A stretch of 64,000 bases of DNA from an uncultured Gemmatimonadota bacterium (GCA_951812955.1 OX638340.1:128001-192000); one strand, 5' to 3'. Shown: positions 25,768 through 54,287, numbered from the stretch's first letter. Translations and numbers: made by a program. The notes: generated by a model not told the origin, from the sequence alone.

Positions 25768-25813
25768 GAGATGGGAAGTACTTAATCGGCAGCGACCTCG
25801 AAATCGGCATCCT

Positions 25814-26878: not shown

Positions 26879-26892
26879 GATTAAGGAATACC

Positions 26893-28083: not shown

Positions 28084-28122
28084 CCCGGGTTACCAACCGA
28101 ATCACCAATATGTGGAGTGAAC

Positions 28123-29112: not shown

Positions 29113-29189
29113 CTCCTTTCGAGTGGAGGCGTGATTCCTTTCGAATAAAGGCATGGTTCCTATCGAGTAGAGGCGCGATCCCTTTCGAG
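29102..29189. repeat. Four decaying tandem copies of a 22-bp unit that begins with the last codons and stop of the Gfo/Idh/MocA gene
   Basis: The copies are tggaggcgtgactcctttcgag / tggaggcgtgattcctttcgaa / taaaggcatggttcctatcgag / tagaggcgcgatccctttcgag. The gene ends …P M E A *. Confidence 0.8.
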
Positions 29190-29266
29190 GATCCGGGTAC
29201 ACTTCACCCCACATTACCGTATCATTGAAATCTAGCGGTGTACCATTGAAATATTGAGGAGCCCCA

Positions 29267-30244: not shown

Positions 30245-30282
30245 CCTGGTGGAAGAACTCGCAGACCGGTGGGGACATGATC

Positions 30283-33408: not shown

Positions 33409-34173
33409 CTACACGCATCCACCATAAGCTCGACCCGATACCAGGTCGTACTCGGGCATGGCGCCGCTTCCGATATACTTTGACCGGGCATCCATGTACG
33501 CGACGGTTAGGCCGATACGCCGTTCGTCGCTGGTATTGGCGTCGGTCCGGTGCAGGGCAAGGCTGTGGTGGAACGAACAGCCCCCGGCCTTGAGCGGAAC
33601 GGCTACTTCCCGTTCATAGCTGACGTGGGCGTCTTCGACACGAAAGTCCTCGAGATGTTTGTGCTCGATCACACCGTCTTTGTGTGAACCGGATATGAAT
33701 CGCATGCACCCGTTCTGCTCGGTGGCGTCGTCCAGGGCGATCCAGCAGATCACGAGGTTGGGCGGATCGATGTTCGTCCAGTAGGCGGAGTCCTGGTGGG
33801 GCGGTTTCGCCGAACCGACCCTCGGTGGTTTGCAGAGTGTCTGGTCCACGTAGATCTTGAGATCGGGGCCAATCAGGTTTCGAACCACGCCCAGGATCTT
33901 CGGATGCCGGGCCAGCTCTTTGAATACCGGGTCGTGCTTCGTCAGATTCCAGATTTTACGGACGTTGTTGAACCGCACGGGATCAGCCTGCGCTTCACCC
34001 TTCACGACCCTGGGTTCGATTTGAACGTACTCGGCCGGATAATCGACCACTTCGTTGCCGATATCTTCGAGACGCTGGTGGAGCGCTTTGGTCTCCAGCG
34101 GCGTCAGCAGGCTCTCGTAAGGTAGAAATCCCCGTTCGTTGAACTGGTCGACCTGTGCCTGGGTCAACGACAC
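33409..34173 (-). CDS. Phytanoyl-CoA dioxygenase (PhyH)-family Fe(II)/2-oxoglutarate oxygenase
   Basis: PhyH-like N-terminus (QVDQFNERGFLPYE) with an HxD…H facial triad context. Confidence 0.75.
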   Translation of the reverse strand: MSLTQAQVDQFNERGFLPYESLLTPLETKALHQRLEDIGNEVVDYPAEYVQIEPRVVKGEAQADPVRFNNVRKIWNLTKHDPVFKELARHPKILGVVRNLIGPDLKIYVDQTLCKPPRVGSAKPPHQDSAYWTNIDPPNLVICWIALDDATEQNGCMRFISGSHKDGVIEHKHLEDFRVEDAHVSYEREVAVPLKAGGCSFHHSLALHRTDANTSDERRIGLTVAYMDARSKYIGSGAMPEYDLVSGRAYGGCV

Positions 34174-38919: not shown

Positions 38920-39444
38920 ATGGCTTTCAATATCAAAAAACGCGGCAAACTGACCTACTATTACCACGGGGACAGCCCGGTGCTGTCGGCCCTGGTGACC
39001 GAAGAGCAGTCCGACGGCGACCTGAGGATCTATTTCGCCGGGCTGACGGGCGGCTATTCGGCCAAGGGCGTGCTGGAACGGGACGAGTTGGTCTCGATGG
39101 AACCGGAGCAGGAGATCCCCCTCGTGTTTCAGAGCTGGGAGAGGTGGCTGATCGACGCCGGACTGTGCAGTTCGCTCAGGGAAATCGATTTTATTGAGGT
39201 GCACGCCTTCGGATGCCAGCCCAAGTCTCCGAATCCCCTCGTGGACCCAATTGGGTACGCCGCGGAGCAGGACCGGCTAAAAGAAGCCTACGCCCGCGCG
39301 TACAGCGGGTTCTTCCGGGATTACCTGCCGGATAACGGGGTTCCATGCCGCTTCACGGTCCACCTCGTAGACGTGCCCGACAAGGCCGCGTCTTACGAAT
39401 TCTATTCCACGGCGCTCTGGCAACGGTCGCTGCAATCCGATTAG
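38920..39444 (+). CDS. Hypothetical protein (no family recognised)
   Basis: 174-aa ORF with a good RBS (GAGGAG, 5 nt, ATG). Its GC content is typical of coding sequence. Confidence 0.5.
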   Translation: MAFNIKKRGKLTYYYHGDSPVLSALVTEEQSDGDLRIYFAGLTGGYSAKGVLERDELVSMEPEQEIPLVFQSWERWLIDAGLCSSLREIDFIEVHAFGCQPKSPNPLVDPIGYAAEQDRLKEAYARAYSGFFRDYLPDNGVPCRFTVHLVDVPDKAASYEFYSTALWQRSLQSD

Positions 39445-39607: not shown

Positions 39608-39636
39608 TTGACACCCATCCGGTTCAGGATCATATT
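39608..39636 (+). promoter_or_regulatory. Candidate sigma70-type promoter for the RraA-like/sulfatase operon
   Basis: TTGACA at 39608-39613, a 17-nt spacer, then CATATT at 39631-39636, about 75 nt upstream of the ATG at 39711 (RBS GGAAGGAG). Confidence 0.4.
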
Positions 39637-39710
39637 CACCGGGTTGCATCCACCGTTCAGCCTGTTTTATTCCCGATCCGCTGCCGTAAGCACCCTGGAA
39701 GGAGCAACGC

Positions 39711-40448
39711 ATGTCCGCGCGGTCCTCGCAGGAGGCGCTGGAAGCGCTGAAACAGTTCGATACGCCCTCGATTACGAACGTGGTGGCGACCTACCCGACC
39801 CACCCCCTCTGCCTGGGCCTGTACAATCCCTGGTCGGAGAACTGGTATACCGATCAGACCATCAAGTGCATCTATCCCGATCTCGGGCGCACCGTGGGCT
39901 ATGCCGTCACGTGCGTATTCGGTCTTCCCGAGCCGGGCTTCAAGAACCTTTCCTTCCTGGACGTGATCGATGCCCTGGACGCATCCCCGCAACCGACGAT
40001 TCTGGCAATCCAGCAGAAATTTCCCCCGGAGATCGCCGGCAAGGTGGGGCTCGCCGGCGGTAATATGACCGCTTCTGCCAAGGCGGTGGGATGTGTGGGG
40101 GTCGTCTCGAACGGACCCTCCCGCGATATCGACGAGATCCGCCCCATGAAGGTACAGTATCTGCTCAGCGGAATTACGCCGGGACATGGCGACATGGCCG
40201 TGCACGCGGTGAACGTGCCCGTATCCGTTGGCGGAATGGACGTGGCCCCGGGCGAGATCATCCACATGGACGAGAACGGCGCCTGCAAGTTCCCGGCCAA
40301 CAAACTGGACGCGGTGCTCGAAAACGCCACGGCGCTTGCGGTCGAGGAAGAGTCCCGCATCGCCGCCTTCCAAAGCGCGCGCAATGCCGACGATGTCCGG
40401 GCTATCCTGGGCGGACACAGCTACGGCAAGAAAGAAGAGGCTGAATGA
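39711..40448 (+). CDS. RraA-family protein (RNase E inhibitor / 4-hydroxy-4-methyl-2-oxoglutarate aldolase / demethylmenaquinone methyltransferase-like fold)
   Basis: RraA-like fold motifs (…AGGNMTASAKAVGCVGVV…GITPGHGDM…). The stop overlaps the next ATG (ATGA). Confidence 0.7.
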   Translation: MSARSSQEALEALKQFDTPSITNVVATYPTHPLCLGLYNPWSENWYTDQTIKCIYPDLGRTVGYAVTCVFGLPEPGFKNLSFLDVIDALDASPQPTILAIQQKFPPEIAGKVGLAGGNMTASAKAVGCVGVVSNGPSRDIDEIRPMKVQYLLSGITPGHGDMAVHAVNVPVSVGGMDVAPGEIIHMDENGACKFPANKLDAVLENATALAVEEESRIAAFQSARNADDVRAILGGHSYGKKEEAE

Positions 40449-41926
40449 AATGCGTCTTTGTCGTACTTGATACCGTCCGCCGGGACTTCCTGTCCTCATA
40501 CGGCAACGACTGGGTCCATACGCCGGCCCTCGACCGTCTGGCCGAGCGAGGCGTCGTTTTCGACAACCACTGGGTAGGTTCGCTTCCGTGCATGCCCGCG
40601 CGCCGGGAGTTCATGACCGGCAGGTACAACTTCATCTACCGGGGCTGGGGACCCATCGAGCCCTACGACGACACCCTGCCCGGCGAGTTGCGTAAGAACG
40701 AAGTATTCACCCACTTGCTGACCGATCATTACCACTATTTCGAACTCGGCGGCGAGAACTACCACACGGCCTTCAACACCTGGGACTTCTTCCGAGGCCA
40801 GGAAAACGACTGGTGGGCGTCCCACGTGGACCGGATGGCCCTGCCGGATCACCTGGGGCAGCTCACGCAGCAGAACTATGGCAACCGCAAGCTGCAGCAG
40901 CGGGAGGAAGACTTCTCCGGTCCCAAGACCGCGCAGGCGGCCATCGAGTGGCTGAAGTCGAACCAGGCGGCGGAGGACTGGTTCCTTCAGGTCGAGATCT
41001 TCGATCCCCACGAACCCTTCTATTGCACGGAGAAGTATAGGTCCATGTACGGGGACGATTACAAAGGCCCCTTTTACGACTGGCCGAGTTACGACGAAGT
41101 GCACGAGTCGCCGGAAGCCATAGACCACGTCCGGAAGTGCTATGCCGGGCTGCTTACGATGACGGACCACTGGGTCGGCAAGATCTTCGACACCCTCGAC
41201 GAACTTGGGTTGTGGGAAGATACCCTGGTCGTGTTCACCACGGATCACGGCACCATGCTGGCCGAGCATGATTTCTGGATGAAGAACATTATGCCGCTGT
41301 ACAACGAGATCGTCCGCATTCCCCTGATCGCCAGTCTGCCCGGCAACGAGAGAGCCGGAACGCGGACCGGCGCGCTCACGCAGACCATCGACCTGATGCC
41401 GACCTTTCTCGACTACTTCGATACACCGCCGCCGCCCCACGTGCAGGGTACGTCGTTGCGCGGGATGCTGGACGGCGAAGGCGTGCGATCGGACGGCATT
41501 TTCGGATATTTCGGCATGGCGATGAACATCACCGACGGCCGGTACGTGTACATGCGCAACCCGGTGAACGAGGATGCCGGCCCCCTCTACGCCTATACGG
41601 CCATGCCCACCGGCGGCCTGAACCGCTGGTATCCGCGGGAGGTGTACGACCGGGTGGAAACGGGCCGCTACTTCGGCCACACCTACAACCTGCCGCTGTA
41701 CAAGATCCCGACGGAGGGCAAGGTCCCGAGGCACCATCCAGACGAGGCGTCCTACGCGGGGCGCAACCAGCTGTTTGACGTGGTCGCCGATCCCGCTCAA
41801 CAGCACCCGATCGTCGATCCGGAACTGGAAAGGCATTTCACCGACGGGATTGCCCGGCACCTTGAAACCTGCGAGGCCATGCCGGAGCAGTTCGCCCGGC
41901 TCGGTATCGACCCGCCCGGCGCATAG
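40445..41926 (+). CDS. Cys-type sulfatase (formylglycine-dependent arylsulfatase family)
   Basis: Signature C-M-P-A-R-R-E-F-M-T-G-R (C-x-P-x-R-x4-T-G) and an N-terminal metal-binding DxxR…D motif. Confidence 0.9.
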   Translation: MKCVFVVLDTVRRDFLSSYGNDWVHTPALDRLAERGVVFDNHWVGSLPCMPARREFMTGRYNFIYRGWGPIEPYDDTLPGELRKNEVFTHLLTDHYHYFELGGENYHTAFNTWDFFRGQENDWWASHVDRMALPDHLGQLTQQNYGNRKLQQREEDFSGPKTAQAAIEWLKSNQAAEDWFLQVEIFDPHEPFYCTEKYRSMYGDDYKGPFYDWPSYDEVHESPEAIDHVRKCYAGLLTMTDHWVGKIFDTLDELGLWEDTLVVFTTDHGTMLAEHDFWMKNIMPLYNEIVRIPLIASLPGNERAGTRTGALTQTIDLMPTFLDYFDTPPPPHVQGTSLRGMLDGEGVRSDGIFGYFGMAMNITDGRYVYMRNPVNEDAGPLYAYTAMPTGGLNRWYPREVYDRVETGRYFGHTYNLPLYKIPTEGKVPRHHPDEASYAGRNQLFDVVADPAQQHPIVDPELERHFTDGIARHLETCEAMPEQFARLGIDPPGA

Positions 41927-42094
41927 CGTATTGCACGATGGAGGGATCCGTTGGGCGGTACGCGGAACGAGCAGGCCGGAAAAACCCAATACGCGGAACA
42001 AGCAGTACGCGGACCAAGCAGGCCAGAGCCTGCAAGGTACGAGCTGCGATAAATGGTTCGCTGTAACGAGTACGCAGATACAAGGGGTAAGCTG

Positions 42095-43891
42095 ATGATT
42101 CACCGCCTTCGTCGCCAGGCGCCGGTTTTCGTCGCGGCCGTACTTGCGCTGTCATTTCTGCAATGCGGCGCGCAGCCCGATCCTGATGAGACCGAAGAAG
42201 GCAGCGGCCCCCAGCTGTTGTTCGGTCAGACCGCGGAGATGAAAGAGGCTGCCCACGCCGCGTTGATGGAACGTCTTCCTGAAGATGCCGCGCCCCTGGA
42301 GTACCAGGTGTTCCGGTACATGGCCGCCGAACCCAAGAGCATGGACCAGGGCGTCTCGATTTACGTGGCCGGCGGCAGCGAATTCCACTTCGAAAGGCTC
42401 GCCATGTTCGGTGTGAATGGGGAGCTCATCCCGGGTGCGGCGGATTCCTGGGAGACCACGGAAGACGGGAAGACTTGGACCTTTCACCTGCGCCGGGACG
42501 CACGGTGGAGCGACGGACGGCCCGTCACCGCGCACGATTTCGAATACACCTTCAAGCGGTTCCTCCATCCGAACGCGGGCAACGTTTACGCCTTTCTCTA
42601 CTACGATATCAAGGGCGCCCGGGCATACAACCAGCGGGAAACGGACGATGTCGACACCGTGGGGGTCTGGGCCGTGGACGACTATACCCTGGTCATAGAG
42701 ACGGAACAATCCTGCGCCTTCCTGCCCCATATCACCGCCTACCTGACCTCCGCACCCGTTCCCCCGTGGCAGGTCGAGAAGTATGGGGACCAGTGGGCGC
42801 TCGCCGGCACCTGCCTGACCAATGGGCCCTTTCAACTCGAGACCTGGAAAACGGGCCAGTACATGACCTTCGGCCTGAATCCCCATTACTCCGGCCCCAA
42901 TCCCGGCCATCTCCGCCAGATCGTCCGCATATTCAACGCCATGGTTGGCTCGGTCAGCGCGTCGAACGACATGGGGCTGCTGCCCTACGAAAATGACGAG
43001 ATCGACGTAATCGATATCAGCCCCATGGTCTACGGCGGCCTGCGCGGCGACCCGGAGTGGAACGAACCCGCGTGGACTTACGACCAGTTCACGACGATCT
43101 ACCTTTTCTTCCGGACGCGTCAGCCCCCCTTCGACAACCTCAAGGTCCGCCAGGCCTTCGCCCATGCCATCGACAAAGTGTCGCTGAACGAGACGATTCT
43201 CCAGGACATGATGATTCCCGCCTATACCATGCTTCCGCTCCATTTCCCAGGTTACGTCGGGGATAAATACCAGGACCACCAGCGGTTCGACGTGGAACTC
43301 GCCCGGCAACTGCTCGCGGAGGCGGGTTATCCGGACGGCAGGGGTTTTCCGCGGATGGATATCTGGCTCGCCGACGCGACGCCCGCTTCTTCCATCAGCC
43401 AGGCTGCCCAGGCGTTACAGGAGATGCTCAAGGAGAATCTGAATATCCAGATCGGCATCCGGAACACGGAAGGGGCCGCGTACCGGTCGGCCATGTACAA
43501 CTGGGACATGCCCATGAGCATCGTCGGTTTCAACTACGACTTCCCCGATCCCCATAGCATGCTCGGCATCATCTGGCGATCACAGCCCAGGGGCTATACC
43601 CGCCACGACTGGCTGAATCCGGCCTTCGACCGGCTGATCGACATGGCTGCCGGGGAGCTGCATCACGAGGCCCGCATGGCCATGTACGACGAGGCCGAAG
43701 GGATTCTCGCCTCCGAGGCCGCCGCGGTCTTCCTGTGGCATGTCAATACCTACCAGTTGCGCAAGCCGTGGTTGAAGGGGTTCAAGGAAGACCGGTGGGG
43801 CAATTTTCCCAATTACCGGAACGCGGGCACGTATTACGACCTCTACATTGGGAAAGAGGCCGTGGAAAGCGATCGCCGCATTGATTACTGA
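42095..43891 (+). CDS. ABC transporter substrate-binding protein, family 5, lipoprotein-type signal; paralog of 30283..31953
   Basis: MIHRLRRQAPVFVAAVLALSFLQCG lipobox-like signal. ~600 aa SBP_bac_5 fold. The ORF opens at 42053. Confidence 0.8.
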   Translation: MIHRLRRQAPVFVAAVLALSFLQCGAQPDPDETEEGSGPQLLFGQTAEMKEAAHAALMERLPEDAAPLEYQVFRYMAAEPKSMDQGVSIYVAGGSEFHFERLAMFGVNGELIPGAADSWETTEDGKTWTFHLRRDARWSDGRPVTAHDFEYTFKRFLHPNAGNVYAFLYYDIKGARAYNQRETDDVDTVGVWAVDDYTLVIETEQSCAFLPHITAYLTSAPVPPWQVEKYGDQWALAGTCLTNGPFQLETWKTGQYMTFGLNPHYSGPNPGHLRQIVRIFNAMVGSVSASNDMGLLPYENDEIDVIDISPMVYGGLRGDPEWNEPAWTYDQFTTIYLFFRTRQPPFDNLKVRQAFAHAIDKVSLNETILQDMMIPAYTMLPLHFPGYVGDKYQDHQRFDVELARQLLAEAGYPDGRGFPRMDIWLADATPASSISQAAQALQEMLKENLNIQIGIRNTEGAAYRSAMYNWDMPMSIVGFNYDFPDPHSMLGIIWRSQPRGYTRHDWLNPAFDRLIDMAAGELHHEARMAMYDEAEGILASEAAAVFLWHVNTYQLRKPWLKGFKEDRWGNFPNYRNAGTYYDLYIGKEAVESDRRIDY

Positions 43892-44050
43892 GGCACCCGG
43901 CGATGATCGCGCCCGGCCTTCGGATCGCGTCCTGCGACTATCACGCTCGGCCTCCGGATTGACTGCGTGTTTCGCATAGAAGCATCGGTTTTTCCTGAGG
44001 CTTGCAGATTGACCACAGAACGTCGATAAAGAAAACGGACAGGCTCACCC

Positions 44051-44875
44051 ATGGAAAACGAACACCAGTACGCCAAGATGACCGACGCGCAGCGTGAGCA
44101 TCTGGACCAGTACGGCTATCTGGTTATCGAAGACGCGTTGCCCCCAGCCGTTGTAGGCGAGTTGAACGCAGGCATCGACGAAGTGTACGACAGAGCCTGG
44201 AACGAAGGCAAGCTGGGGGATAAAGACGATCTGAACTTGCGGAACTGCATTGTGGCACACGACGCCTTTCTTCAGTTGCTCGACTGGCCGGCGACGATCC
44301 CGCTGGCCTGGGGCGCGCTCAGCTGGAACATCCAGATGATCACCTCCCACCTGATCGTGCTTCCGTCCGGACCGGAACCCTCCGAGGAGGCCAAGCGCGG
44401 GCATGGCATGCACCGCGACGGCGGCCGTTCCTTCGTCGAAATGCAAGAGCCCCATCCCCGCATCCTGCTGAAGATCGCCTACGTACTCAGCGACCAGACG
44501 GACCCGGCATCGGGCGCCACGGCCCTGGTGCCCGGCAGCAACCGGATCACGGGAGAACCGCCGCGGGATCCGGCCACTGGATGGCCATATGGCGCTATCC
44601 AGATGAACCTGCCCGCCGGAAGCGCCTTCCTGTTCGAACAGCGCACCTTTCACAGCATCGGGAAGAACTGGTGCGGCCAGGACCGCCGGACCATCTTCAT
44701 GGGGTATGCCTACCGCTGGGTAAAGCCCATGGACTATATCCAGATGCCGAAGTCGCTCGTGGACCGCTGCACTCCCCTGCAGAAGCAGTTGATCGGCGAA
44801 GTGGGCGACGCACTGAGCTACTATCTGCCGGAGGAAGAGGACGTTCCCCTCAAGGCGTATCTGGAAGGGAAATGA
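44051..44875 (+). CDS. PhyH-family Fe(II)/2-oxoglutarate dioxygenase
   Basis: PhyH-like motifs (DQYGYLVIEDALP…HRDG…). Confidence 0.75.
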   Translation: MENEHQYAKMTDAQREHLDQYGYLVIEDALPPAVVGELNAGIDEVYDRAWNEGKLGDKDDLNLRNCIVAHDAFLQLLDWPATIPLAWGALSWNIQMITSHLIVLPSGPEPSEEAKRGHGMHRDGGRSFVEMQEPHPRILLKIAYVLSDQTDPASGATALVPGSNRITGEPPRDPATGWPYGAIQMNLPAGSAFLFEQRTFHSIGKNWCGQDRRTIFMGYAYRWVKPMDYIQMPKSLVDRCTPLQKQLIGEVGDALSYYLPEEEDVPLKAYLEGK

Positions 44876-44884
44876 GGTCCGCAC

Positions 44885-46240
44885 ATGGCCAATGTCCTCC
44901 TGCTCATGTCCGACGAGCACAATCCGTTCTACGCTTCAGTCTACGGCCATTCCTTCGTGCATACCCCGGCCATGGACCGGCTCGCGGAGAACGGGGTCGT
45001 CTACGAGAGCGCCTACTGTCCCTCGCCCCTGTGCACGCCCAGCAGGTCCGCCTTCATGTCGGGACGCCGGGTCCACCAGATACAGGCCTATTCCAACTGC
45101 ACAATCGGCGTGGAGCCGGATATACCGACCTATGGACGCGCCCTGGCCGAACAGGGGGTTCATTCCGTGCACGTGGGCAAGACCCACGTTTACGCTCCGA
45201 GCAGTGGACTGGGATTCCGTGAGACGCGGAACGCCGTGGAGAATATGGGCGCCGGCGATCTGGAAATCGGCCGCCGTCCTTTCCGTATCAGGCGAGCGGC
45301 CGCGGAACGGGCCACCCAGTTCGGCGTGAAAGCATCGCATCTCCGGGTCGACCTGGACCGCGTCGACGCCGCCATAGACTGGATATCAAATACCGCGCCG
45401 ACCCTGGATACGCCGTGGACGCTCTCGGTAAACATCATCCATCCCCACTTCCCCCACTATACGTCGCAGGAACTCTGGGATCTCTATCCGCAAGGCGGCG
45501 ATCTGCCGGAGTACGGGACGGATCGGGAGACTGCGAACCACCCCAGGGCACGGGAAGTCAGGGAGCACTTCCAGACGGACGCGTTCACCGAGGAACAGGT
45601 ACGGGGACAGCGGCGGGGATACCTGGCGTGCGTGACGTTCGTGGACCGGCAGCTGGCGCGGCTTATCGAAGCGCTGAAGGCATCGGGACAATACGACGAT
45701 ACGAATGTCATTTACACGTCGGACCACGGCGAAATGCTTGGAAAGTTCGGCATGTGGTGGAAGTGTTCTCTCTACGAAGACGCGAGCCGGATCCCATGCA
45801 TCGCGGCGGGACCCGATTTTCCTGCGGATCTGCGCGTGTCGACGCCGGTGGACCTCCACGATGTACAGGCGAGCCTCTTCGAATCGACCGGCGCCGACCG
45901 TCCAATCGACTGGGTGGGGCGGCCTCTGCAGAACATGCCCGAACAGGATGACCAGCGCGTCGTTTTCTCCGAATACCATGGCCACGGCGTTCGCCAAAGT
46001 GCCTTCATGATCCGAAAAGGCAGATGGAAGTACATTCACCACCTTAACGCGCCGCACCAACTGTTCGACCTGGACCGGGATCCCGATGAACTGCAGAACG
46101 TGCATGGCGCGTGCGCCGAGGTGGCCGCAGACCTGGAGCGGGAGCTCCGCGCGATCTGCGATCCGGAAGTGGAGAACGACCGCGCGGATCGATTCATTGA
46201 AACGCAACTTGCGTCCATGTCGTCGAGTGGCCCATCGTAG
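44885..46240 (+). CDS. Cys-type sulfatase
   Basis: Signature C-T-P-S-R-S-A-F-M-S-G-R and the N-terminal LLLMSDEHN motif. Confidence 0.9.
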   Translation: MANVLLLMSDEHNPFYASVYGHSFVHTPAMDRLAENGVVYESAYCPSPLCTPSRSAFMSGRRVHQIQAYSNCTIGVEPDIPTYGRALAEQGVHSVHVGKTHVYAPSSGLGFRETRNAVENMGAGDLEIGRRPFRIRRAAAERATQFGVKASHLRVDLDRVDAAIDWISNTAPTLDTPWTLSVNIIHPHFPHYTSQELWDLYPQGGDLPEYGTDRETANHPRAREVREHFQTDAFTEEQVRGQRRGYLACVTFVDRQLARLIEALKASGQYDDTNVIYTSDHGEMLGKFGMWWKCSLYEDASRIPCIAAGPDFPADLRVSTPVDLHDVQASLFESTGADRPIDWVGRPLQNMPEQDDQRVVFSEYHGHGVRQSAFMIRKGRWKYIHHLNAPHQLFDLDRDPDELQNVHGACAEVAADLERELRAICDPEVENDRADRFIETQLASMSSSGPS

Positions 46241-46285
46241 CGAGCCCATCGTAACAAGCCCATCTGAATAAGCAAACGGAGCGAA

Positions 46286-47695
46286 ATGAGCGGGAAACGA
46301 TTGCTAGGAATCACCGTTCTGGCCGACTTCATCCTGAACGAGGGGGTGGAGTCCGTGCTGGACAATCTCGTCGAACGGGCCGGCGCCACAGCCGTGGCGC
46401 TGAACCCCACGGTGACCGCGCCGTCGGAGGAGGGGGCCGGTTCCTTCCAGCCACCCACCGACGCCGGAAGCAGTCCAAGGCTCTTCGATCGTCCCCTGTG
46501 GGGCCGGCGCTCGCTCTGGGTCCGTAGCGCGCCCAGTTATCACCCCCGAACCTCGTACTATGCCGATACTCCGTACAAGCCCCGCGCGCCGAACGAGTTG
46601 ACCGACGAGCATGGCGATCTGGTCGGACGATTCATCGACGCGGCCCTGGACCGGGGACTCAAGGTCTACCTGCAGTTGAGCGGCGCGACGCCACCCGGAC
46701 TCCTGGACGACGACCGGCCGCGACGGCCGGACGGACAACTGCCGGACCGCATGGCCGACACGGGATGTCTCGCCAGCGAGGCGATCCGGGCTTACATCGC
46801 GGCCTACGTGCGCGACCTGTTGGAGCAGTACCCTCGGATTACAGGATTCCGGCCGGACTGGCCCGAGTATCCCTGTTACAAGCTGGACGAAGCCTTTCAG
46901 GATTTCAATCCACAGGTGGCGCACTGGGCGGCGGCCCATGGATTCGACTACGCGTCCATACACCGGGAGGTCCTGGCGGCGTTCGAATATCTGCACGGAC
47001 GGCTCGAGAACGGTGATCTGCTGGACTTCAGCGGTCCCGGCCGGGGCACGGCGACGCTGGCTGAACTGCTCCGTTCCTCACCGGGTATCGTGGAGTGGAT
47101 GCGCCTTAAGTCCGCCCTGTCCAACGACCTGCTGCGCCACTGGAGGACCGTCGTCACGGACCATGGCGGACCCGAAATGGAGCTGTCTGCCAACGCCTTC
47201 ATGCTTCCGCTCACCCTGTGGACGGGCTTCGATTTCCGTGAAGCGGCGAAACTCTGCGACGCCCTGTCTCCCAAGCTGTATACCATGCACTGGTCGGTCA
47301 TGGTGGAATTCTGGGGGCGGGTACTCCTGAAGCACAATCCCGGCCTGGACGAGCGGCTTCTGGTGCGTTCGCTCGCCCATCTCTTCGACCTGGGCGATGA
47401 AATCACGGCCACACGCATCGATCAATACAGGTATCCCGATCCCGACGAGCCCCATCCCATTCCCGACAACGTCCAGAGTCGGCGGATCGAGCAGGTCTGC
47501 GCCGAAGTGAACGGCCGCGCGTTGGTCACCCCGCTGATGCACGGTTACGGCCCGCACCACGACTTCGTCCGGCGTTTCAGGGTGGTGGCGGAAAGCCCGG
47601 CCGATGGCGTATGGATCAATCGTTACGGGTACCTCAGCGACGAAAAGCTGGATGCGGTGGGGCGCATATGGCGGCGAGCAGACCGAGCAACTTGA
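46286..47695 (+). CDS. Hypothetical protein embedded in the sulfatase locus (no family recognised; possibly a TIM-barrel hydrolase-like fold)
   Basis: 469-aa ORF with a coding-like composition. It sits between two sulfatase genes. Confidence 0.5.
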   Translation: MSGKRLLGITVLADFILNEGVESVLDNLVERAGATAVALNPTVTAPSEEGAGSFQPPTDAGSSPRLFDRPLWGRRSLWVRSAPSYHPRTSYYADTPYKPRAPNELTDEHGDLVGRFIDAALDRGLKVYLQLSGATPPGLLDDDRPRRPDGQLPDRMADTGCLASEAIRAYIAAYVRDLLEQYPRITGFRPDWPEYPCYKLDEAFQDFNPQVAHWAAAHGFDYASIHREVLAAFEYLHGRLENGDLLDFSGPGRGTATLAELLRSSPGIVEWMRLKSALSNDLLRHWRTVVTDHGGPEMELSANAFMLPLTLWTGFDFREAAKLCDALSPKLYTMHWSVMVEFWGRVLLKHNPGLDERLLVRSLAHLFDLGDEITATRIDQYRYPDPDEPHPIPDNVQSRRIEQVCAEVNGRALVTPLMHGYGPHHDFVRRFRVVAESPADGVWINRYGYLSDEKLDAVGRIWRRADRAT

Positions 47696-47745
47696 CGGCG
47701 CCTGCTGGACGAGGTGGGCCGCATCTGGCGGCGCACTCGAAAGGA
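47647..47745. repeat. Two imperfect tandem copies (~57 bp) spanning the 3' end and stop of the hypothetical gene
   Basis: Copy 1 encodes LDAVGRIWRRADRAT*. Copy 2 (ctggacgaggtgggccgcatctggcggcgcactcga) would encode LDEVGRIWRRTR. Confidence 0.7.
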
Positions 47746-47750
47746 AACCA

Positions 47751-49277
47751 ATGACCCGGCCCAACATCCTGTTCATCATGACGGACCAGCAGCGCTTCGA
47801 TACCATCGCCGCGCTGGGGAACGACGTCATCCACACGCCTAACATGGATCGCCTGGTGCGCCGGGGCGTTTCCTTTACCCGGGGCTACTCGACCTGCCCC
47901 GTCTGTGTGGCGGCGCGGACGACCATCCGCACCGGTTGTGATCCGCCCACTACCCGCGTATTCAGTAACAGCCGGTCCGCTCCTGTGCCAGGCCAGGCCG
48001 GTACGCTTGAAGGCCGGTGCGGGGACTATCTTGCACGTACCCTGTCGGCGATGGGCTACCGAACCTTCGGCGTGGGAAAGTTCCACACGGCCCCATGGGA
48101 TGAAGACATCGGATATGAATCCCAGCTGCATAGCGAGGAGCTTTACGCCAGCCCGCGTCAGCGTCGGGAGGAAGCCTACGCGGGATGGATTGCGCGGGAA
48201 CATCCGGAATTCGACTATATCGAAGCGCTCATGGGGGAACGGACTGAGATGTACTACATGCCCCAGGCGAGTCCGCTGCCCGCCCACCTGACCTTGGAAT
48301 CCTGGGCGGCCGACCGCTCGATCGAGGCATTGCAGCAACCCGGCGATCGGCCGTTCTTCGGCTTCGTGTCCTTCATCGGTCCTCATCCGCCCTTTGCGCC
48401 GCCTGTACCCTTCAATCGGATCTACGATCCCGACCGTATGCCCGGTCCGGTTCGGGGCGAAAAGGCGGTGGACCACATGGACGAGCAGATACCCTACATG
48501 AACCGGATCATCTGGGCGGACGAGATCAACGATGCCTTGACACGGACTCTAAAGGCCCGTTATTACGGAGAGATCACCTACATCGACGATTGCCTGGGAC
48601 GGATACTGGATGCCGTCGAGGCCAGGGCGGACGCCAATGATACGCTCATCTGCTTTTTCTCGGACCACGGCGACCATCTCGGCGACCATACGGCTTGGCA
48701 AAAGGAGAGTTTCTTCGACGTTTCGGCACGGGTGCCTTTCCTGGTAAGCTGGCCCGCCCGGCTTCCGCGGGATGTCCGCCGAGACGACCTGGTCTGCCTG
48801 ACCGATCTGTTTGCCATCGCCACCCATGCCGCCGGACAGACCCAGGTCCGCGACGGTGTCGACGTACTCGGCGCAATCGAAGGCAGCGTCTCGCCGAGGG
48901 AGCACCTCTTCGGATATTACGGCGAGCCGGGAACGGACCGGTTCAAAATCATGGTCCGAAGCGAAGACTGGAAATACATTTACCTGGCCAACGGAGGTGG
49001 GGAGCAACTCTTCAATACGGCCGAAGACCCCGCCGAGATCGCGAACAGGATCGAGACCGATCGGGACGTGGCGGACGGTCTGTATCGCTGTGCAGTGGAA
49101 GCATGTGGCCATCCAGGCGCTTCCGGTGCCCTGGTTGGCAAGAACCTGAGGTCCTTTCCCTACACCAGGTGGAAGGCCTCGCGGATATACCAGTTCGACC
49201 GCTCGCGGGATGTGCGGGGGTTTCCCGGTCATCCCAGCGAAGTGTTGGGTCCCTGGATCCGTCGCGGCCGCAGATAA
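47751..49277 (+). CDS. Sulfatase with a variant active-site motif C-V-A-A-R-T-T-I-R-T-G (Pro replaced by Ala)
   Basis: ILFIMTDQQRFD metal-binding N-terminus. The motif keeps the R(+4) and TG(+9/+10) spacing but has Ala at +2. The ATG at 47751 is preceded by AAGGAA. The ORF opens at 47604. Confidence 0.85.
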   Translation: MTRPNILFIMTDQQRFDTIAALGNDVIHTPNMDRLVRRGVSFTRGYSTCPVCVAARTTIRTGCDPPTTRVFSNSRSAPVPGQAGTLEGRCGDYLARTLSAMGYRTFGVGKFHTAPWDEDIGYESQLHSEELYASPRQRREEAYAGWIAREHPEFDYIEALMGERTEMYYMPQASPLPAHLTLESWAADRSIEALQQPGDRPFFGFVSFIGPHPPFAPPVPFNRIYDPDRMPGPVRGEKAVDHMDEQIPYMNRIIWADEINDALTRTLKARYYGEITYIDDCLGRILDAVEARADANDTLICFFSDHGDHLGDHTAWQKESFFDVSARVPFLVSWPARLPRDVRRDDLVCLTDLFAIATHAAGQTQVRDGVDVLGAIEGSVSPREHLFGYYGEPGTDRFKIMVRSEDWKYIYLANGGGEQLFNTAEDPAEIANRIETDRDVADGLYRCAVEACGHPGASGALVGKNLRSFPYTRWKASRIYQFDRSRDVRGFPGHPSEVLGPWIRRGRR

Positions 49278-49391
49278 GAGGCGACACGGCCGCAGATAAG
49301 AATCAGGGTGACCGGAGTTTGTCTCGGTTTTCCCCGCAATATCATTCTTGGGAATCCGCGCTCGAATCGACGAAGAGGAAGAGTTCATATC

Positions 49392-50738
49392 GTGAACCCC
49401 GTTGATACATCCACCGCAGTCCCGGCATCGGCCATGCCTTCCGCCGGAGGCGACCCGGTCCCCGTCCCGGCGTTCCACGTGATGATGAAACCCCGGGGGG
49501 CCATCTGCAATCTCGATTGCAAGTACTGCTACTTCCTCGCGAAGGAGGACCTGTACCCGGGCAGCGGATTCCGCATGTCCGAAGACCTGCTCGAAGAATA
49601 CATCCGGCAGTACATCGAGGCCCAGCAGGTACCGGAAGTCACCTTTGCCTGGCAGGGCGGCGAGCCCACGCTCATGGGACTGGACTTCTTCCGCAAAGCC
49701 GTTGAATTCCAGAAAAAACACCAGAAACCGGGAACGCGGCTATTCAACTCGCTGCAGACCAACGGTACGCTCCTCGACCGGGACTGGTGCCAGTTCTTTC
49801 ATGAAAACGACTTCCTGATCGGTCTTAGCCTGGACGGCCCCCGGGCGCTGCACGACGCCTACCGGGTCGACAAGGGCGGCAAACCGACCTTCGACACCGT
49901 AATGCGCGCCGCCGAGATGATGCAGTCCCACGAGGTCGAATTCAACATACTGACCACGGTGCACGCGGCGAACGCGGGGCACCCCGTCGAAGTCTATCGC
50001 TTCATGCGGGACGTGGTGAAGACCCGCTTTATCCAGTTCATTCCTATCGTGGAGCGGGACAACGAGACAGGGTACCAGGAAGGCAACGAAGTGACGAACC
50101 GGTCGGTGACGGGGAAGCAGTACGGCCGGTTCCTGATCGGGATTTTCGACGAATGGGTACGCCGGGACGTGGGGAATATGTACGTGCAGATATTCGACGT
50201 GTCGCTCGCTGCCTGGTCGGGCCAGAGCCCGGGTCTCTGCATATTCATGGAGACCTGCGGCGATGCCCTCGCCCTGGAGCACAACGGGGATCTATATTCC
50301 TGTGATCACTATGTCGAACCGGATTACAAGCTGGGGAATATCGCCGAAATACCCATGATGGATATGGTCCTGTCCGATCAGCAGCGGGCCTTTGGACAGG
50401 CCAAACTGGACACGCTTCCGCAATACTGCCTGTCATGCGACGTGCGGTTCATCTGCAACGGGGGTTGTCCGAAGAATCGTATCATAAACACGCCCGACGG
50501 CGAACCGGGCCTGAACTACCTGTGCGAGGGGTACAAGGCCTTCTTCCACCACATCGACGGTCCCATGCAATTTATGGCCAATGAACTGCGCAACCGGCGG
50601 GCTCCCGCCAACGTGATGTCGTACATCCGCCAGCGCGAATCCGAACTTCGGAAACAGCAGCAGTTTCAATCGGTGGGGCGAAACGATCCCTGTCCTTGCG
50701 GAAGCGGCCTGAAGTACAAGCGGTGCCACGGAAGGTAG
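49392..50738 (+). CDS. Anaerobic sulfatase-maturating enzyme (radical SAM/SPASM), with a C-terminal SEC-C metal-binding motif
   Basis: CNLDCKYCYF (Cx3Cx2C) and SPASM Cys clusters (CLSCDVRFICNGGCP). C-terminal DPCPCGSGLKYKRCHG. GTG at 49392 follows GAGGAAGAG by 8 nt. An alternative ATG lies at 49434. Confidence 0.85.
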   Translation: MNPVDTSTAVPASAMPSAGGDPVPVPAFHVMMKPRGAICNLDCKYCYFLAKEDLYPGSGFRMSEDLLEEYIRQYIEAQQVPEVTFAWQGGEPTLMGLDFFRKAVEFQKKHQKPGTRLFNSLQTNGTLLDRDWCQFFHENDFLIGLSLDGPRALHDAYRVDKGGKPTFDTVMRAAEMMQSHEVEFNILTTVHAANAGHPVEVYRFMRDVVKTRFIQFIPIVERDNETGYQEGNEVTNRSVTGKQYGRFLIGIFDEWVRRDVGNMYVQIFDVSLAAWSGQSPGLCIFMETCGDALALEHNGDLYSCDHYVEPDYKLGNIAEIPMMDMVLSDQQRAFGQAKLDTLPQYCLSCDVRFICNGGCPKNRIINTPDGEPGLNYLCEGYKAFFHHIDGPMQFMANELRNRRAPANVMSYIRQRESELRKQQQFQSVGRNDPCPCGSGLKYKRCHGR

Positions 50739-50806: not shown

Positions 50807-51460
50807 TCACATATAGTAGCCGCGTTCCACCGCGAGGGTCAGGGAAAGCTCGATATCCGAGATCGCCCTTGACATGGCCTGGCCGATGAGGTCCAGCTTG
50901 CGCACCTGGTCGATGCGTTCGGTGGCCTGCGCGAGTTCCCGCGAGGACAGGATCTCCTTGAAGAGATTGCACGCGTGGGCGAGGTTGATGATCACGACGT
51001 CGCGCGGACCGGGGATCTTTTCGCTGAACAGCACTTCCATGATCCGGAGCTTGACTTCACGCTCGGCCGTTCCGTCGATGGTGGGATAGCGCCGCGACCG
51101 GAACACCCACAGGAAGTTTCCTTCTTCCCTGCTCAGGATTCCCCGTTCCACGAGCCGGTCGATAGCCGTCTCACGGATGTCGTCGGCACGGTCTACCGCG
51201 TGCTCGATCCAGTACCGTGCCCCATGTGTTTCTGGTGACGCCGCGATGTCCGCCAAAAGGGGGTCGAGGAGACTGTCACCCAAAGGGTTGGAGTCCACGA
51301 GGACCAGCTTGTCGACATCGGTATCGATACGGTTCTCGAGGGCCAGGTCCATCAACACGCCTCCGGCAAGGCCATACCGCAAGAGGCGGTCGGGCACACC
51401 CAGGAACTTCCCGTCGTCGTCGAGCGTCAGCAACATGATCTCTTCCGCGAATCTTAACAT
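50807..51460 (-). CDS. GPP34/GOLPH3-family protein
   Basis: The N-terminal pattern FAEEIMLLTLDDDGKF…GLAGGVLMDLAL matches the GPP34 hallmark (LAEELLLLALDDEKGK…GLAGAAL.EL). Start at MLRF, preceded by AGGAGAG. The ORF opens at 51520. Confidence 0.7.
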   Translation of the reverse strand: MLRFAEEIMLLTLDDDGKFLGVPDRLLRYGLAGGVLMDLALENRIDTDVDKLVLVDSNPLGDSLLDPLLADIAASPETHGARYWIEHAVDRADDIRETAIDRLVERGILSREEGNFLWVFRSRRYPTIDGTAEREVKLRIMEVLFSEKIPGPRDVVIINLAHACNLFKEILSSRELAQATERIDQVRKLDLIGQAMSRAISDIELSLTLAVERGYYM

Positions 51461-51653
51461 CTTCTCTCCTGGTTTGTAATTCGTTTTAGTGCATGCCGCA
51501 GGCGACCCTGGCATCTCCAAAGTTTCTTATGTATCAATAGCCATTCCGAATAGCCATCCTGAATTCACTTATCAAATTGAAGCTTTTTATACGTGTCCAT
51601 TTTCGCGTTTGCTGTCAAGGGAATAAAGCCCTGTCGAAGGCCGTCGGACCGCT

Positions 51654-54014: not shown

Positions 54015-54287
54015 ATCGGCTCGAATGAAAATGTGAGTATGCGGAAAGTTCAGATCGAGTATTTTTCGAGCAATTATGGATAGCGCGGGTACGTGCGTGA
54101 TTGGCATCGAAACGGACGGCAATTTGACGAGTCCGGCTCGTCCTGTCAAGCGCAACATCTCGAACGCGGAAAGCCCATTCATTCCTTCAGCCAGGTGCGA
54201 TTCGGTCCACTGAATTCGCTTGTAAGCAGACCTTTGTGAAGGTATTTTTCGCCACAAACCTCCCTGCTCATGAATAGGAGACTAAAC

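What the first reader, a model, noticed from the sequence alone, without database searches (positions are those of the whole stretch)
39608..50738. Sulfatase/anSME catabolic locus with co-transported substrate: RraA-like, three Cys-type sulfatases, SBP, PhyH dioxygenase, hypothetical protein, radical-SAM maturase
An ~11-kb same-strand cluster, in order:
- an RraA-fold protein (39711) whose stop overlaps (ATGA) the start of sulfatase 1 (40445);
- a family-5 SBP (42095);
- a PhyH-type Fe/2OG oxygenase (44051);
- sulfatase 2 (44885);
- an unrecognised 469-aa protein (46286);
- sulfatase 3 (47751);
- an anaerobic sulfatase-maturating enzyme (49392).

Co-localising the maturase with its cognate sulfatases, a peptide/opine-type binding protein and a hydroxylating oxygenase suggests a dedicated pathway for uptake and desulfation/oxidation of a sulfated small molecule. 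Candidates include a sulfated peptide, an osmolyte, or a sugar-acid derivative. The mix of SBP family 5, PhyH and an RraA-like aldolase/decarboxylase fold is not a described sulfatase PUL-type arrangement. No permease or ATPase genes are present in the locus.
Basis: partly seen in the sequence, partly recalled or inferred. Interest (0 to 1): 0.65.

Follow-up and report, generated by a model that had tools for sequence, protein, structure and literature searches.

The report
Cytoplasmic sulfatase, maturase and glycosidase-like cluster
An uncultivated marine bacterium (Latescibacterota) carries a conserved gene cluster of three intracellular sulfatases, the enzyme that activates them, a binding protein and an unnamed enzyme with a sugar-cleaving fold; it most likely breaks down an imported sulfated sugar compound, which is a variation on known biology.

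Summary
All eight genes lie where stated, on one strand, and the family assignments are confirmed. The three sulfatases carry CMPAR, CTPSR and CVAAR active-site motifs. The maturase passes the curated anSME cut-off. The ATGA overlap is real. No ABC permease or ATPase occurs anywhere in the 64 kb.

New findings:
- The "unrecognised" 469-aa protein belongs to a large, unnamed family found in at least 440 species. It has a confident glycoside-hydrolase-like (β/α)8 barrel, closest to PgaB/GH153, Cwp19/GHL10 and GH42.
- All enzymes lack signal peptides; only the binding protein is exported.
- Sulfatase 3 is a conserved CxAxR type, the class that the literature assigns to anSME rather than FGE. This explains the adjacent maturase.
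- Synteny shows a core of sulfatase 2, barrel protein and sulfatase 3, usually with the anSME nearby. This core survives where the flanks differ.
- RraA–sulfatase 1 and SBP–PhyH are modules that come and go.
- RraA orthologues in other phyla sit in unrelated contexts.

Best reading: cytoplasmic desulfation and cleavage of an imported sulfated glycoside. This is a new variant of a known kind and of moderate interest.

The parts
39608..39636 (+). Sigma-70-like promoter match (TTGACA-17-CATATT), 75 nt upstream of the first gene. A GGAAGGAG ribosome-binding site lies at about 39699.
   Evidence: The number of such matches in the region is no higher than in shuffles, so this is only a candidate.
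39711..40448 (+). RraA-like / class II aldolase-fold protein, 245 aa. Its stop codon overlaps the sulfatase 1 start (ATGA).
   Evidence: PF03737, E 1.4e-19. It scores far below the LigK and RraA equivalog cut-offs. The overlap is seen. The RraA-sulfatase 1 pair also occurs in L093, but orthologues elsewhere sit in unrelated contexts.
40445..41926 (+). Sulfatase 1, Cys-type (CMPAR), with no signal peptide. Its nearest solved relatives are phosphonate monoester hydrolase-type enzymes.
   Evidence: PF00884 begins at residue 4. PDB 2vqr, 108 bits. The motif is conserved in 20/20 orthologues.
42095..43891 (+). Family-5 solute-binding protein (OppA-like), with an N-terminal signal peptide and a lipobox-like Cys. 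It is the only exported product of the locus.
   Evidence: PF00496, E 1.6e-76. OppA 8are, 186 bits. The sequence MIHRLRRQAPVFVAAVLALSFLQC is seen. A 69% orthologue again follows a sulfatase 1 orthologue in L090.
44051..44875 (+). PhyH-family Fe(II)/2-oxoglutarate dioxygenase, 274 aa. The HxD...H residues are present by inspection.
   Evidence: PF05721, 57.9 bits against a cut-off of 22. Best PDB hit is TlxI 7vbq, 46 bits. A 66% orthologue is present in L090.
44885..46240 (+). Sulfatase 2, Cys-type (CTPSR), with no signal peptide. It is choline-sulfatase-like but scores below the equivalog cut-off.
   Evidence: PF00884 begins at residue 3. TIGR03417, 262 bits against 433. PDB 6fny, 179 bits.
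46286..47695 (+). 469-aa member of an unnamed family with a glycoside-hydrolase-like (β/α)8 barrel. It has a conserved D191-W-P-E194 motif, and K330 and H419 are invariant.
47751..49277 (+). Sulfatase 3, Cys-type with the CxAxR variant motif (CVAAR), and no signal peptide.
   Evidence: PF00884. PRK13759, 263 bits against 481. PDB 7oz8, 167 bits. C-V-A-A-R-x-T-[IV]-R-T-G occurs in 26 of 27 orthologous ORFs at 60% identity or more; one gave no motif match.
49392..50738 (+). Anaerobic sulfatase-maturating enzyme (radical SAM/SPASM), with an extra C-terminal SEC-C zinc motif.
   Evidence: TIGR03942, 499.9 bits against a cut-off of 349.45. PF04055, PF13186 and PF02810. CNLDCKYC is present.

Best explanation
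The locus is a catabolic cluster of a Latescibacterota (PAUC34f-related) bacterium. It most likely takes up a sulfated glycoside or short sulfated oligosaccharide and dismantles it inside the cell.

Proposed steps:
1. The exported, probably lipid-anchored family-5 binding protein captures the compound. It hands it to an Opp/Dpp-type ABC permease encoded elsewhere and shared with paralogous binding proteins (inferred).
2. In the cytoplasm, three formylglycine-dependent sulfatases of different subfamilies remove different sulfate esters. This is inferred from family and motif.
3. The co-encoded radical-SAM maturase converts their active-site cysteine to formylglycine. It is needed in particular for sulfatase 3, whose CxAxR motif belongs to the class the literature assigns to anSME and not to FGE.
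4. The 469-aa glycoside-hydrolase-like barrel, always wedged between sulfatases 2 and 3, cleaves the glycosidic bond. Glu194 probably acts as the general acid. The mechanism is non-canonical, possibly substrate-assisted, because no conserved carboxylate nucleophile is seen (inferred).
5. The PhyH dioxygenase and the RraA-like aldolase-fold protein are accessory. They may act on the aglycone or on the sugar or sugar-acid products, and they are not constant members.

Shown here: gene content, motifs, cytoplasmic location, fold and synteny. Inferred: substrate class, order of steps and the transporter partner.
For: - Families and motifs.
- anSME is above the curated cut-off.
- Cytoplasmic location: the Pfam sulfatase domains start at residues 3-4 of each protein, and the barrel's first strand starts at residue 6, so there is no room for signal peptides. 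The SBP alone has one.
- CxAxR-type sulfatases are assigned to anSME in PMC2459300.
- Independent weak sequence signals from family members: GH42 (4/45, best E 1.2e-5), GHL6 (5/45), GHL10 (2/45). A PDB profile hit to a GH42 LacZ (E 4.9e-4) aligns E194 with the GH42 'NNE' acid/base Glu.
- Synteny where the flanks differ:
  - Sulf2-barrel-Sulf3 is kept in L025, L028 and L093, and in the short contig-limited loci L020 and L032 whose flanks cannot be judged.
  - L090 keeps Sulf1-SBP-...-PhyH-...-Sulf2-barrel.
  - L093 keeps RraA-Sulf1-...-Sulf2-barrel-Sulf3-...-anSME.
- In 65 more distant loci, sulfatase ORFs are about 4-fold denser within 2 kb of the barrel gene than at 2-8 kb.
- In other phyla the barrel gene sits with sugar and sugar-acid enzymes and with sulfur-removing enzymes: SIS-sulfatase-GFO-SDR; PhyH-PhyH-TauD; MR_MLE/FAH/Aldedh.
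Against: - The SBP is closest in sequence to oligopeptide-binding OppA proteins, not to known sugar-binding family-5 proteins.
- The sulfatases' nearest characterised relatives act on small molecules (choline sulfatase, phosphonate monoester hydrolase) and not on glycans.
- The barrel protein lacks a conserved nucleophile and matches no CAZy-linked Pfam model itself, so hydrolase activity is unproven.
- In 47 of 65 more distant loci no sulfatase lies within 8 kb of the barrel gene.
- No depolymerase, permease or regulator is in the locus.
- Co-transcription was not tested, and the promoter and terminator scans are at chance level.
Confidence: 0.5

Rival explanations
1. The locus imports and desulfates a sulfated non-carbohydrate small molecule, such as a sulfotyrosine- or sulfoserine-containing peptide, choline-O-sulfate-like osmolyte, or another alkyl or aryl sulfate. 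PhyH hydroxylates the carbon skeleton. The barrel protein has some role other than glycoside cleavage.
For: - The SBP is OppA-like: 181 bits to the OppA model and 186 bits to PDB OppA 8are.
- Sulfatase 2 is closest to choline sulfatase, sulfatase 3 to arylsulfatase PRK13759, and sulfatase 1 to PehA/PMH.
- All sulfatases are cytoplasmic, like enzymes that act on small solutes.
- Peptidases (M1, M24) are present elsewhere in the window.
Against: - All equivalog cut-offs are missed by wide margins: 262 against 433, 263 against 481, 151 against 900, 181 against 947.
- The most constant partner of sulfatases 2 and 3 is a glycoside-hydrolase-like barrel.
- SBP paralogues sit in sugar-acid clusters: MR_MLE, GFO and AKR in the window, and UxuA and ILVD_EDD in L092.
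- The SBP is dispensable from the cluster in L093.
Confidence: 0.25
2. The genes have no common pathway. A sulfatase-rich genome has placed functionally separate genes side by side: a sulfatase/maturase set, an orphan binding protein, one of many PhyH paralogues and a widely conserved RraA-like protein. The synteny seen reflects shared ancestry only.
For: - In about 20 species with 83% or more identity, the flanking genes (SelD fusion, orf174, GPP34, TonB receptor) are just as collinear as the cluster.
- RraA orthologues at 73-76% identity sit in unrelated contexts.
- The barrel gene stands alone in most other phyla.
- Three PhyH genes and two SBP5 paralogues occur in this window alone.
- PAUC34f genomes are reported to be sulfatase-rich (PMC7081726).
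Against: - The order Sulf1-SBP-PhyH-Sulf2-barrel, or RraA-Sulf1...Sulf2-barrel-Sulf3...anSME, persists at 62-77% identity despite insertions, deletions and different flanks.
- Gene spacing is tight: gaps of -4 to 168 bp.
- The CxAxR sulfatase lies directly upstream of the maturase.
- Sulfatases are enriched next to the barrel gene in several gene orders.
Confidence: 0.15
3. The 'sulfatases', at least sulfatase 1, work mainly as promiscuous phosphonate or phosphate mono- or diester hydrolases, and the locus serves phosphorus scavenging rather than sulfate-ester catabolism.
For: The best NCBIfam and PDB relatives of sulfatase 1 are PehA and phosphonate monoester hydrolases.
Against: - The scores are very low: 151 bits against a cut-off of 900 and 108 bits to 2vqr.
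- Sulfatases 2 and 3 are closest to true sulfatases.
- No phosphate-regulon or phosphonate genes lie nearby.
Confidence: 0.07

Closest known systems
Sulfatase-maturase operons (Klebsiella atsBA; Bacteroides and Clostridium anSME with their sulfatases)
   Same: Formylglycine-dependent sulfatases are encoded next to a radical-SAM/SPASM maturase. The maturase passes the curated anSME model. A CxAxR-type Cys sulfatase is paired with an anSME, as described for that class (PMC2459300).
   Different: This locus has three sulfatases of different subfamilies, all without signal peptides, whereas the classical examples are periplasmic or secreted (from my own knowledge). The maturase carries an extra SEC-C tail. 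The same operon-like cluster encodes O2-dependent dioxygenase chemistry (PhyH). A binding protein and a GH-like barrel are interleaved with the sulfatases.
Polysaccharide utilisation loci for sulfated glycans (Bacteroidota SusC/D PULs; sulfatase-rich clusters of Planctomycetota and Verrucomicrobiota)
   Same: Several sulfatases are co-located with a glycoside-hydrolase-fold enzyme and an uptake component. A TonB-dependent receptor gene lies next to the cluster.
   Different: There is no SusD and no recognised CAZy-family enzyme. The enzymes are cytoplasmic. Uptake is through an ABC-type family-5 binding protein whose permease is not in the locus. The TonB receptor is convergently oriented and is conserved only within the collinear clade.
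PgaB C-terminal domain (GH153), Cwp19 (GHL10) and GH42 beta-galactosidases, as relatives of the 469-aa protein
   Different: Identity is only 9-17%. The window protein has no significant Pfam hit. It is cytoplasmic and single-domain, and it has a roughly 100-residue helical insertion (residues 201-294). K330 and H419 are invariant across the family. No substrate is known.
Choline-O-sulfate utilisation (betC choline sulfatase with a binding protein)
   Same: A choline-sulfatase-like enzyme (sulfatase 2) is encoded near a solute-binding protein, with intracellular desulfation of an imported ester.
   Different: Sulfatase 2 reaches 262 bits against the 433-bit equivalog cut-off. The SBP belongs to family 5, not to the glycine-betaine/choline type. 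There are no betA/betB-type genes. Two further sulfatases and a GH-like barrel are present.

Membership tests
Type I (formylglycine-dependent, S1) sulfatases: the three sulfatase genes | Sulfatase domain (PF00884) above the gathering score | tested here: met
   135.5, 125.0 and 144.2 bits against a cut-off of 25.
Type I (formylglycine-dependent, S1) sulfatases: the three sulfatase genes | Active-site C/S-x-P/A-x-R motif near the N-terminus | tested here: met
   CMPAR, CTPSR and CVAAR. The motifs are conserved in orthologues.
Type I (formylglycine-dependent, S1) sulfatases: the three sulfatase genes | Formylglycine actually formed, and sulfate-ester hydrolysis | not testable with these tools
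   Needs expression with the maturase, mass spectrometry and enzyme assays.
Type I (formylglycine-dependent, S1) sulfatases: the three sulfatase genes | SulfAtlas subfamily assignment (S1_n), which predicts substrate class | not tested
   No SulfAtlas models were available. Only proxies were obtained: the nearest PDB and NCBIfam relatives.
Choline sulfatase (TIGR03417 equivalog): sulfatase 2 | Score above the curated equivalog cut-off | tested here: not met
   261.8 bits against 433.45.
Anaerobic sulfatase-maturating enzyme (TIGR03942) | Score above the curated equivalog cut-off | tested here: met
   499.9 bits against 349.45. It falls just below PRK13745, at 481.6 against 484.
Anaerobic sulfatase-maturating enzyme (TIGR03942) | Radical-SAM CxxxCxxC cluster plus a SPASM auxiliary-cluster domain | tested here: met
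   CNLDCKYC is in the sequence. PF04055 and PF13186 hit.
Anaerobic sulfatase-maturating enzyme (TIGR03942) | Converts Cys or Ser of the cognate sulfatases to formylglycine | not testable with these tools
   Biochemical assay required.
RraA / HMG-CHA aldolase family: first gene | RraA-like domain (PF03737) | tested here: met
   71.3 bits against a cut-off of 24.5.
RraA / HMG-CHA aldolase family: first gene | Membership of a characterised equivalog (LigK/PcmE aldolase, or E. coli-type RraA) | tested here: not met
   TIGR02798: 44 bits against 304.5. PRK09372: 27.6 bits against 136.
Oligopeptide-binding protein OppA: the SBP | SBP_bac_5 domain; score above the OppA equivalog cut-off | tested here: not met
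   The domain is present (258 bits), but the OppA model gives 181 bits against 947. It is a family-5 SBP of unknown ligand.
PhyH Fe(II)/2OG dioxygenases | PhyH domain above the gathering score, with HxD...H iron ligands | tested here: met
   57.9 bits against 22. H-R-D and a distal His are seen in the sequence (by inspection).
Glycoside hydrolases (GH153, GHL10 or GH42-like barrel): the 469-aa protein | (β/α)8 barrel most similar to glycoside hydrolases | tested here: met
Glycoside hydrolases (GH153, GHL10 or GH42-like barrel): the 469-aa protein | Significant sequence match to an existing GH or GHL family model | tested here: not met
   No Pfam or NCBIfam hit for the window protein. Only a few distant family members hit GH42, GHL6 or GHL10, and weakly. 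It is therefore not a member of a named family.
Glycoside hydrolases (GH153, GHL10 or GH42-like barrel): the 469-aa protein | Catalytic acid/base and nucleophile carboxylates in place | tested here: inconclusive
   E194 aligns with the GH42 acid/base, and D191 and E194 are at least 90% conserved. No conserved Glu or Asp is found for a nucleophile; K330 and H419 are invariant instead.
Bacteroidota-type PUL | Adjacent SusC/SusD pair | tested here: not met
   A TonB-dependent receptor is present, but no SusD-family hit was found among the neighbouring ORFs scanned.

The most novel reading that the evidence does not exclude
The 469-aa protein founds a new glycoside-hydrolase family. The family is cytoplasmic and present in at least 440 species of six or more phyla at 55-95% identity. 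Its catalytic apparatus is non-canonical: a D-x-x-E acid motif, with invariant Lys and His where a nucleophile is expected. It is dedicated to sulfated or sulfonated sugars and works hand in hand with flanking sulfatases or, in Opitutales, with a TauD-type dioxygenase. On this reading the locus defines a previously undescribed intracellular, ABC-fed route for sulfated glycosides, possibly host glycosaminoglycan or mucin fragments, in sponge- and coral-associated Latescibacterota.
Probability: 0.3. Interest if true: 0.6.

Novelty: new variant of a known kind. Interest (0 to 1): 0.4.

Why it matters
Sulfated glycans and other sulfate esters are a large marine carbon and sulfur pool. PAUC34f/Latescibacterota lineages are uncultivated and sulfatase-rich, but their sulfatases have no assigned substrates.

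This locus gives a compact, testable unit:
- three cytoplasmic sulfatases with their own maturase;
- one of the sulfatases is the CxAxR type assigned to anSME rather than FGE;
- a binding protein that can be used to fish for the ligand;
- a widespread enzyme family with a glycosidase fold and no name.

Identifying the ligand would annotate over a thousand homologues of the barrel protein. It would also clarify why sponge- and coral-associated bacteria keep intracellular sulfatases. The biology is an extension of known sulfatase-maturase and glycan-utilisation themes, not a new principle.

Tried and rejected
- Sequence search of the 469-aa family profile against the PDB found nothing with the close-family profile. 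The wide profile gave only marginal hits.
- The Foldseek search against AFDB50 was not available.
- Rfam found no RNA family anywhere in the window.
- Promoter and terminator scans were at or below shuffle expectation. They give no evidence for or against an operon, and the 39608 promoter-like site is only a candidate.
- I tested RraA-like as a pathway marker by looking at three close orthologues in other phyla. All three contexts were unrelated, so I dropped it as a core component.
- I asked whether the missing permease marks something special about this locus. I rejected that idea because the paralogous SBP in the window and the SBP homologues elsewhere are also orphan.
- I considered membership of the choline sulfatase, OppA, LigK and E. 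coli-type RraA equivalogs. All score far below the curated cut-offs.
- Literature searches for a described sulfatase + PhyH + SBP5 arrangement, or for 'cytoplasmic sulfatase', returned nothing relevant.
- I did not fold orf174 or the other proteins, because only single-sequence input would have been allowed.
- I did not use the metagenome scan, because the genome scan already gave 80 species-level loci.

Full report
**1. Observation**

Profile searches confirm every assignment:
- RraA-like: PF03737, E 1.4e-19.
- Three sulfatases: PF00884, E 3e-39, 5e-36 and 7e-42.
- A family-5 solute-binding protein: PF00496, E 1.6e-76.
- A PhyH dioxygenase: 57.9 bits against a cut-off of 22.
- A radical-SAM/SPASM protein that passes the curated anaerobic sulfatase maturase model: TIGR03942, 499.9 bits against 349.45.

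The 469-aa ORF has no Pfam or NCBIfam hit. The ATGA stop/start overlap of the first two genes is in the sequence. Intergenic gaps run from -4 to 168 bp.

I scanned essentially all large ORFs of the 64-kb window. There is no ABC permease or ATPase anywhere, and there are no other sulfatases.

**2. Anatomy**

The three sulfatases are all Cys-type: CMPARREFMTG, CTPSRSAFMSG and CVAARTTIRTG. In each, the Pfam domain begins at residue 3-4, so there is no room for a signal peptide.

The barrel protein, PhyH and RraA-like proteins also start directly with folded sequence. Only the SBP has an N-terminal signal sequence ending in a lipobox-like Cys (MIHRLRRQAPVFVAAVLALSFLQC). All the chemistry is therefore cytoplasmic, and only the binding protein faces outward.

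Sulfatase 3 carries the CxAxR variant. Its orthologues keep C-V-A-A-R-x-T-[IV]-R-T-G (26 of 27 ORFs at 60% identity or more). The literature assigns CXAXR-type and SXPXR-type sulfatases to anSME, and CXPXR-type to FGE (PMC2459300). This gives a concrete reason for the maturase gene sitting directly downstream of sulfatase 3.

None of the enzymes reaches an equivalog cut-off:
- Sulfatase 2: 262 bits against 433 for choline sulfatase.
- Sulfatase 3: 263 bits against 481 for arylsulfatase PRK13759.
- Sulfatase 1: 151 bits against 900 for PehA.
- SBP: 181 bits against 947 for OppA.
- RraA-like: 44 bits against 304.5 for LigK.

The nearest solved structures are equally distant.

**3. The 'unrecognised' protein**

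It has more than 1,400 homologues, none with a Pfam domain or an informative name. It forms 399 clusters at 50% identity and has relatives in 440 GTDB species. The genome records label these as Latescibacterota, 'Gemmatimonadota', Planctomycetota, Caldilineaceae/Chloroflexota, Verrucomicrobiota, Armatimonadota and Actinomycetota. Identity between phyla is still 55-60%.

An AlphaFold model built on 31 homologues is confident (pLDDT 90.4, pTM 0.91). It is a (β/α)8 barrel with a helical insertion at about residues 201-294.

The fold searches point to glycoside hydrolases:
- Foldseek agrees, with PgaB C-terminal domain E 3e-9 and GH42 next.

Sequence evidence, independent of the model, points the same way. 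A scan of 45 diverse family members gives weak hits to Glyco_hydro_42 (4 members, best E 1.2e-5), GHL6 (5 members) and GHL10 (2 members). A family profile hits a GH42 LacZ in the PDB (E 4.9e-4). That alignment places the family's D191-W-P-E194 on the GH42 'NNE-Y' acid/base motif. A Cwp19 hit above the reporting threshold (E 0.08-0.15) places it on Cwp19's 'FDDYFYP'.

Across the whole family only P56, K330 and H419 are invariant. D191, E194, R65, R69, Y198 and Y447 are at least 90% conserved. No conserved carboxylate is available as a nucleophile. This resembles GH153, where only one catalytic Asp was identified (PMC5933820).

I therefore call it a glycoside-hydrolase-like barrel of a new, unnamed family. 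Its activity is unproven and its mechanism is probably non-canonical. The conserved basic residues would suit an anionic substrate (sulfated or acidic), but that is inference.

**4. Source and synteny**

The window is 95-100% identical at the protein level to the same locus in a 3.9-Mb MAG chromosome (OY762445.1, L007) and in ERZ25069711 (L001). Relatives are labelled Candidatus Latescibacterota, or 'Gemmatimonadetes' in older records. Several MAG names suggest sponge or coral hosts, but that rests on my reading of the names and was not verified. PAUC34f/Latescibacteria are reported to be sulfatase-rich (PMC7081726; PMC4454575).

In about 20 species with 83% or more identity, the whole eight-gene cluster is kept. 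So are its flanks (SelD fusion, orf174, GPP34, TonB receptor), so this layer shows only general collinearity.

The informative cases are more distant genomes whose flanks differ:
- L025 and L028, plus the short contig-limited loci L020 and L032 whose flanks cannot be judged, keep sulfatase 2, barrel and sulfatase 3 at 61-84% identity. In L025 the anSME lies 6 kb downstream.
- L093 keeps RraA-Sulf1 ... Sulf2 (fragmented)-barrel-Sulf3-MetE-like-unknown ... esterase-anSME (with SEC-C). It has no SBP or PhyH.
- L090 keeps Sulf1 (74%)-SBP (69%)-amidohydrolase-MR_MLE-PhyH (66%)-unknown-GT2-epimerase-Sulf2 (62%)-barrel (77%).

So there is a core, Sulf2-barrel-Sulf3 with the maturase nearby, and two modules that come and go: RraA-Sulf1 and SBP-PhyH.

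Below about 66% identity the barrel gene shows one of three situations:
- It is paired with a different, divergently transcribed sulfatase (about 35% identity to Sulf2; 8 loci).
- It has a convergent PhyH directly downstream (3 of the 65 more distant loci).
- It stands without any sulfatase within 8 kb (47 of 65 loci).

Sulfatase ORFs are about four times denser within 2 kb of the barrel gene than at 2-8 kb.

In other phyla its neighbours are sugar or sugar-acid enzymes, or sulfur-removing enzymes:
- SIS-sulfatase-GFO-SDR-barrel (L061).
- PhyH-PhyH-TauD-barrel (Opitutales, L033).
- MR_MLE-RraA-like-FAH-Aldedh-...-barrel-MR_MLE x4 (Caldilineaceae, L056).

By contrast, close RraA orthologues (73-76%) in three other genomes lie in unrelated contexts. 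In L028 the orthologue is in an aminotransferase-DAO-sugar kinase operon.

**5. The binding protein**

The locus SBP has a 48%-identical paralogue 10 kb upstream. That paralogue closes a cluster of M24/creatinase-like, two enolase-superfamily, GFO and aldo-keto reductase genes, again without a permease. Homologues in other genomes are also orphan. One sits beside a SulP transporter, UxuA and an ILVD/EDD dehydratase.

Orphan SBP5 paralogues embedded in different catabolic clusters look like a lineage habit. The simplest reading is a shared ABC permease encoded elsewhere, which was not tested. By sequence the SBP is nearest to oligopeptide binders, so its ligand class is genuinely open.

**6. 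Explanation and rivals**

The best-supported model (about 0.5) has these steps:
1. A sulfated glycoside or short oligosaccharide is bound by the SBP and imported.
2. It is desulfated at different positions by three cytoplasmic sulfatases, which the co-encoded anSME has activated.
3. It is cleaved by the GH-like barrel.
4. PhyH and the RraA-like aldolase-fold protein act as variable downstream or side-activity enzymes.

Gene content, motifs, localisation, fold and synteny are shown. Substrate, order of reactions and transporter partner are inferred.

The rivals are:
It is supported by the OppA-like SBP and by the choline- and aryl-sulfatase-like nearest relatives.
- A no-common-pathway reading (about 0.15). 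It is supported by the modularity and by the general abundance of these families in the lineage.
- A phosphonate- or phosphate-ester reading for sulfatase 1 (under 0.1).

**7. Comparison and novelty**

The locus works like known sulfatase-maturase operons and, more loosely, like sulfated-glycan utilisation loci. It is not a SusC/D PUL, a choline-sulfate operon or an Opp operon by any curated threshold.

Its distinctive points are:
- wholly cytoplasmic sulfatases;
- a CxAxR sulfatase next to an anSME that carries a SEC-C tail;
- a radical-SAM 'anaerobic' maturase sharing a cluster with an O2-dependent dioxygenase;
- an orphan family-5 binding protein;
- an unnamed, widely distributed GH-like family as the constant partner.

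I found no description of this arrangement in the searchable literature, but absence there is weak evidence.

I rate it a new variant of a known kind, with interest 0.4. The main value is as a handle on an uncharacterised enzyme family and on intracellular sulfatases of uncultivated marine symbiont lineages.

Noticed in passing
window 24511-31953 (+): A second catabolic cluster: M24/creatinase-like, two enolase-superfamily (MR_MLE) proteins, GFO_IDH_MocA and an aldo-keto reductase. It ends in a second orphan SBP_bac_5 that is 48% identical to the locus SBP. No permease or ATPase is present here either.
   Followed up: partly
window 38920-39444 (+): A 174-aa ORF with no Pfam hit lies directly upstream of the locus. 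It is 87-100% identical across about 20 species. A 172-aa ORF without a Pfam hit also lies upstream of the cluster in L093, but its similarity to orf174 was not tested. Function unknown.
   Followed up: partly
window 50679-50738 (+), the C-terminus of the anSME: The maturase ends in a SEC-C zinc-binding motif (PF02810, E 1.3e-10) that lies beyond the region matched by the reference anSME models. The motif is also present in the relatives in L001-L003, L093 and L094. Its role is unknown.
   Followed up: partly
window 36335-38563 (-): A 742-aa fusion of an N-terminal pyridine-nucleotide-disulfide oxidoreductase domain with selenophosphate synthetase-like AIRS/AIRS_C domains. It is conserved upstream of the locus in the close clade.
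   Followed up: no
window 50807-51520 (-): A bacterial GPP34/GOLPH3-family protein (PF05719, E 8e-45) lies convergent to the cluster, followed by a TonB-dependent receptor at 51654-54257 (-). Both are conserved only within the collinear clade.
   Followed up: no
window 33409-34173 (-) and 57517-58302 (+): Two further PhyH-family dioxygenase genes make three in 64 kb. They are only remotely related to the locus PhyH (26% identity over 100 aa). PhyH is also a frequent neighbour of the barrel gene in other genomes.
   Followed up: partly
L056 3656-15814; L061 4939-11398; L033 6523-11395: In other phyla the 469-aa family sits in sugar-acid or organosulfur contexts. In Caldilineaceae the order is MR_MLE-RraA-like-FAH-Aldedh-...-barrel-MR_MLE x4. 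In an unclassified MAG it is SIS-sulfatase-GFO-SDR-barrel. In Opitutales it is PhyH-PhyH-TauD-barrel.
   Followed up: partly
L025 5224-7281; L093 13072-15066; L028 29-3599; L090 14365-17928: Two accessory gene sets recur next to the core triad. A MetE-like (Meth_synt_2) protein plus a 317-aa unknown follow sulfatase 3. Alternatively, a 601-608-aa unknown, a GT2 and an NAD-dependent epimerase precede sulfatase 2.
   Followed up: no
window 16534-20424 (-): A 1296-aa fused hydantoinase A/B (oxoprolinase-type) gene. Amidohydrolase, carbonic anhydrase and Nramp genes lie nearby. These are unrelated to the finding.
   Followed up: no
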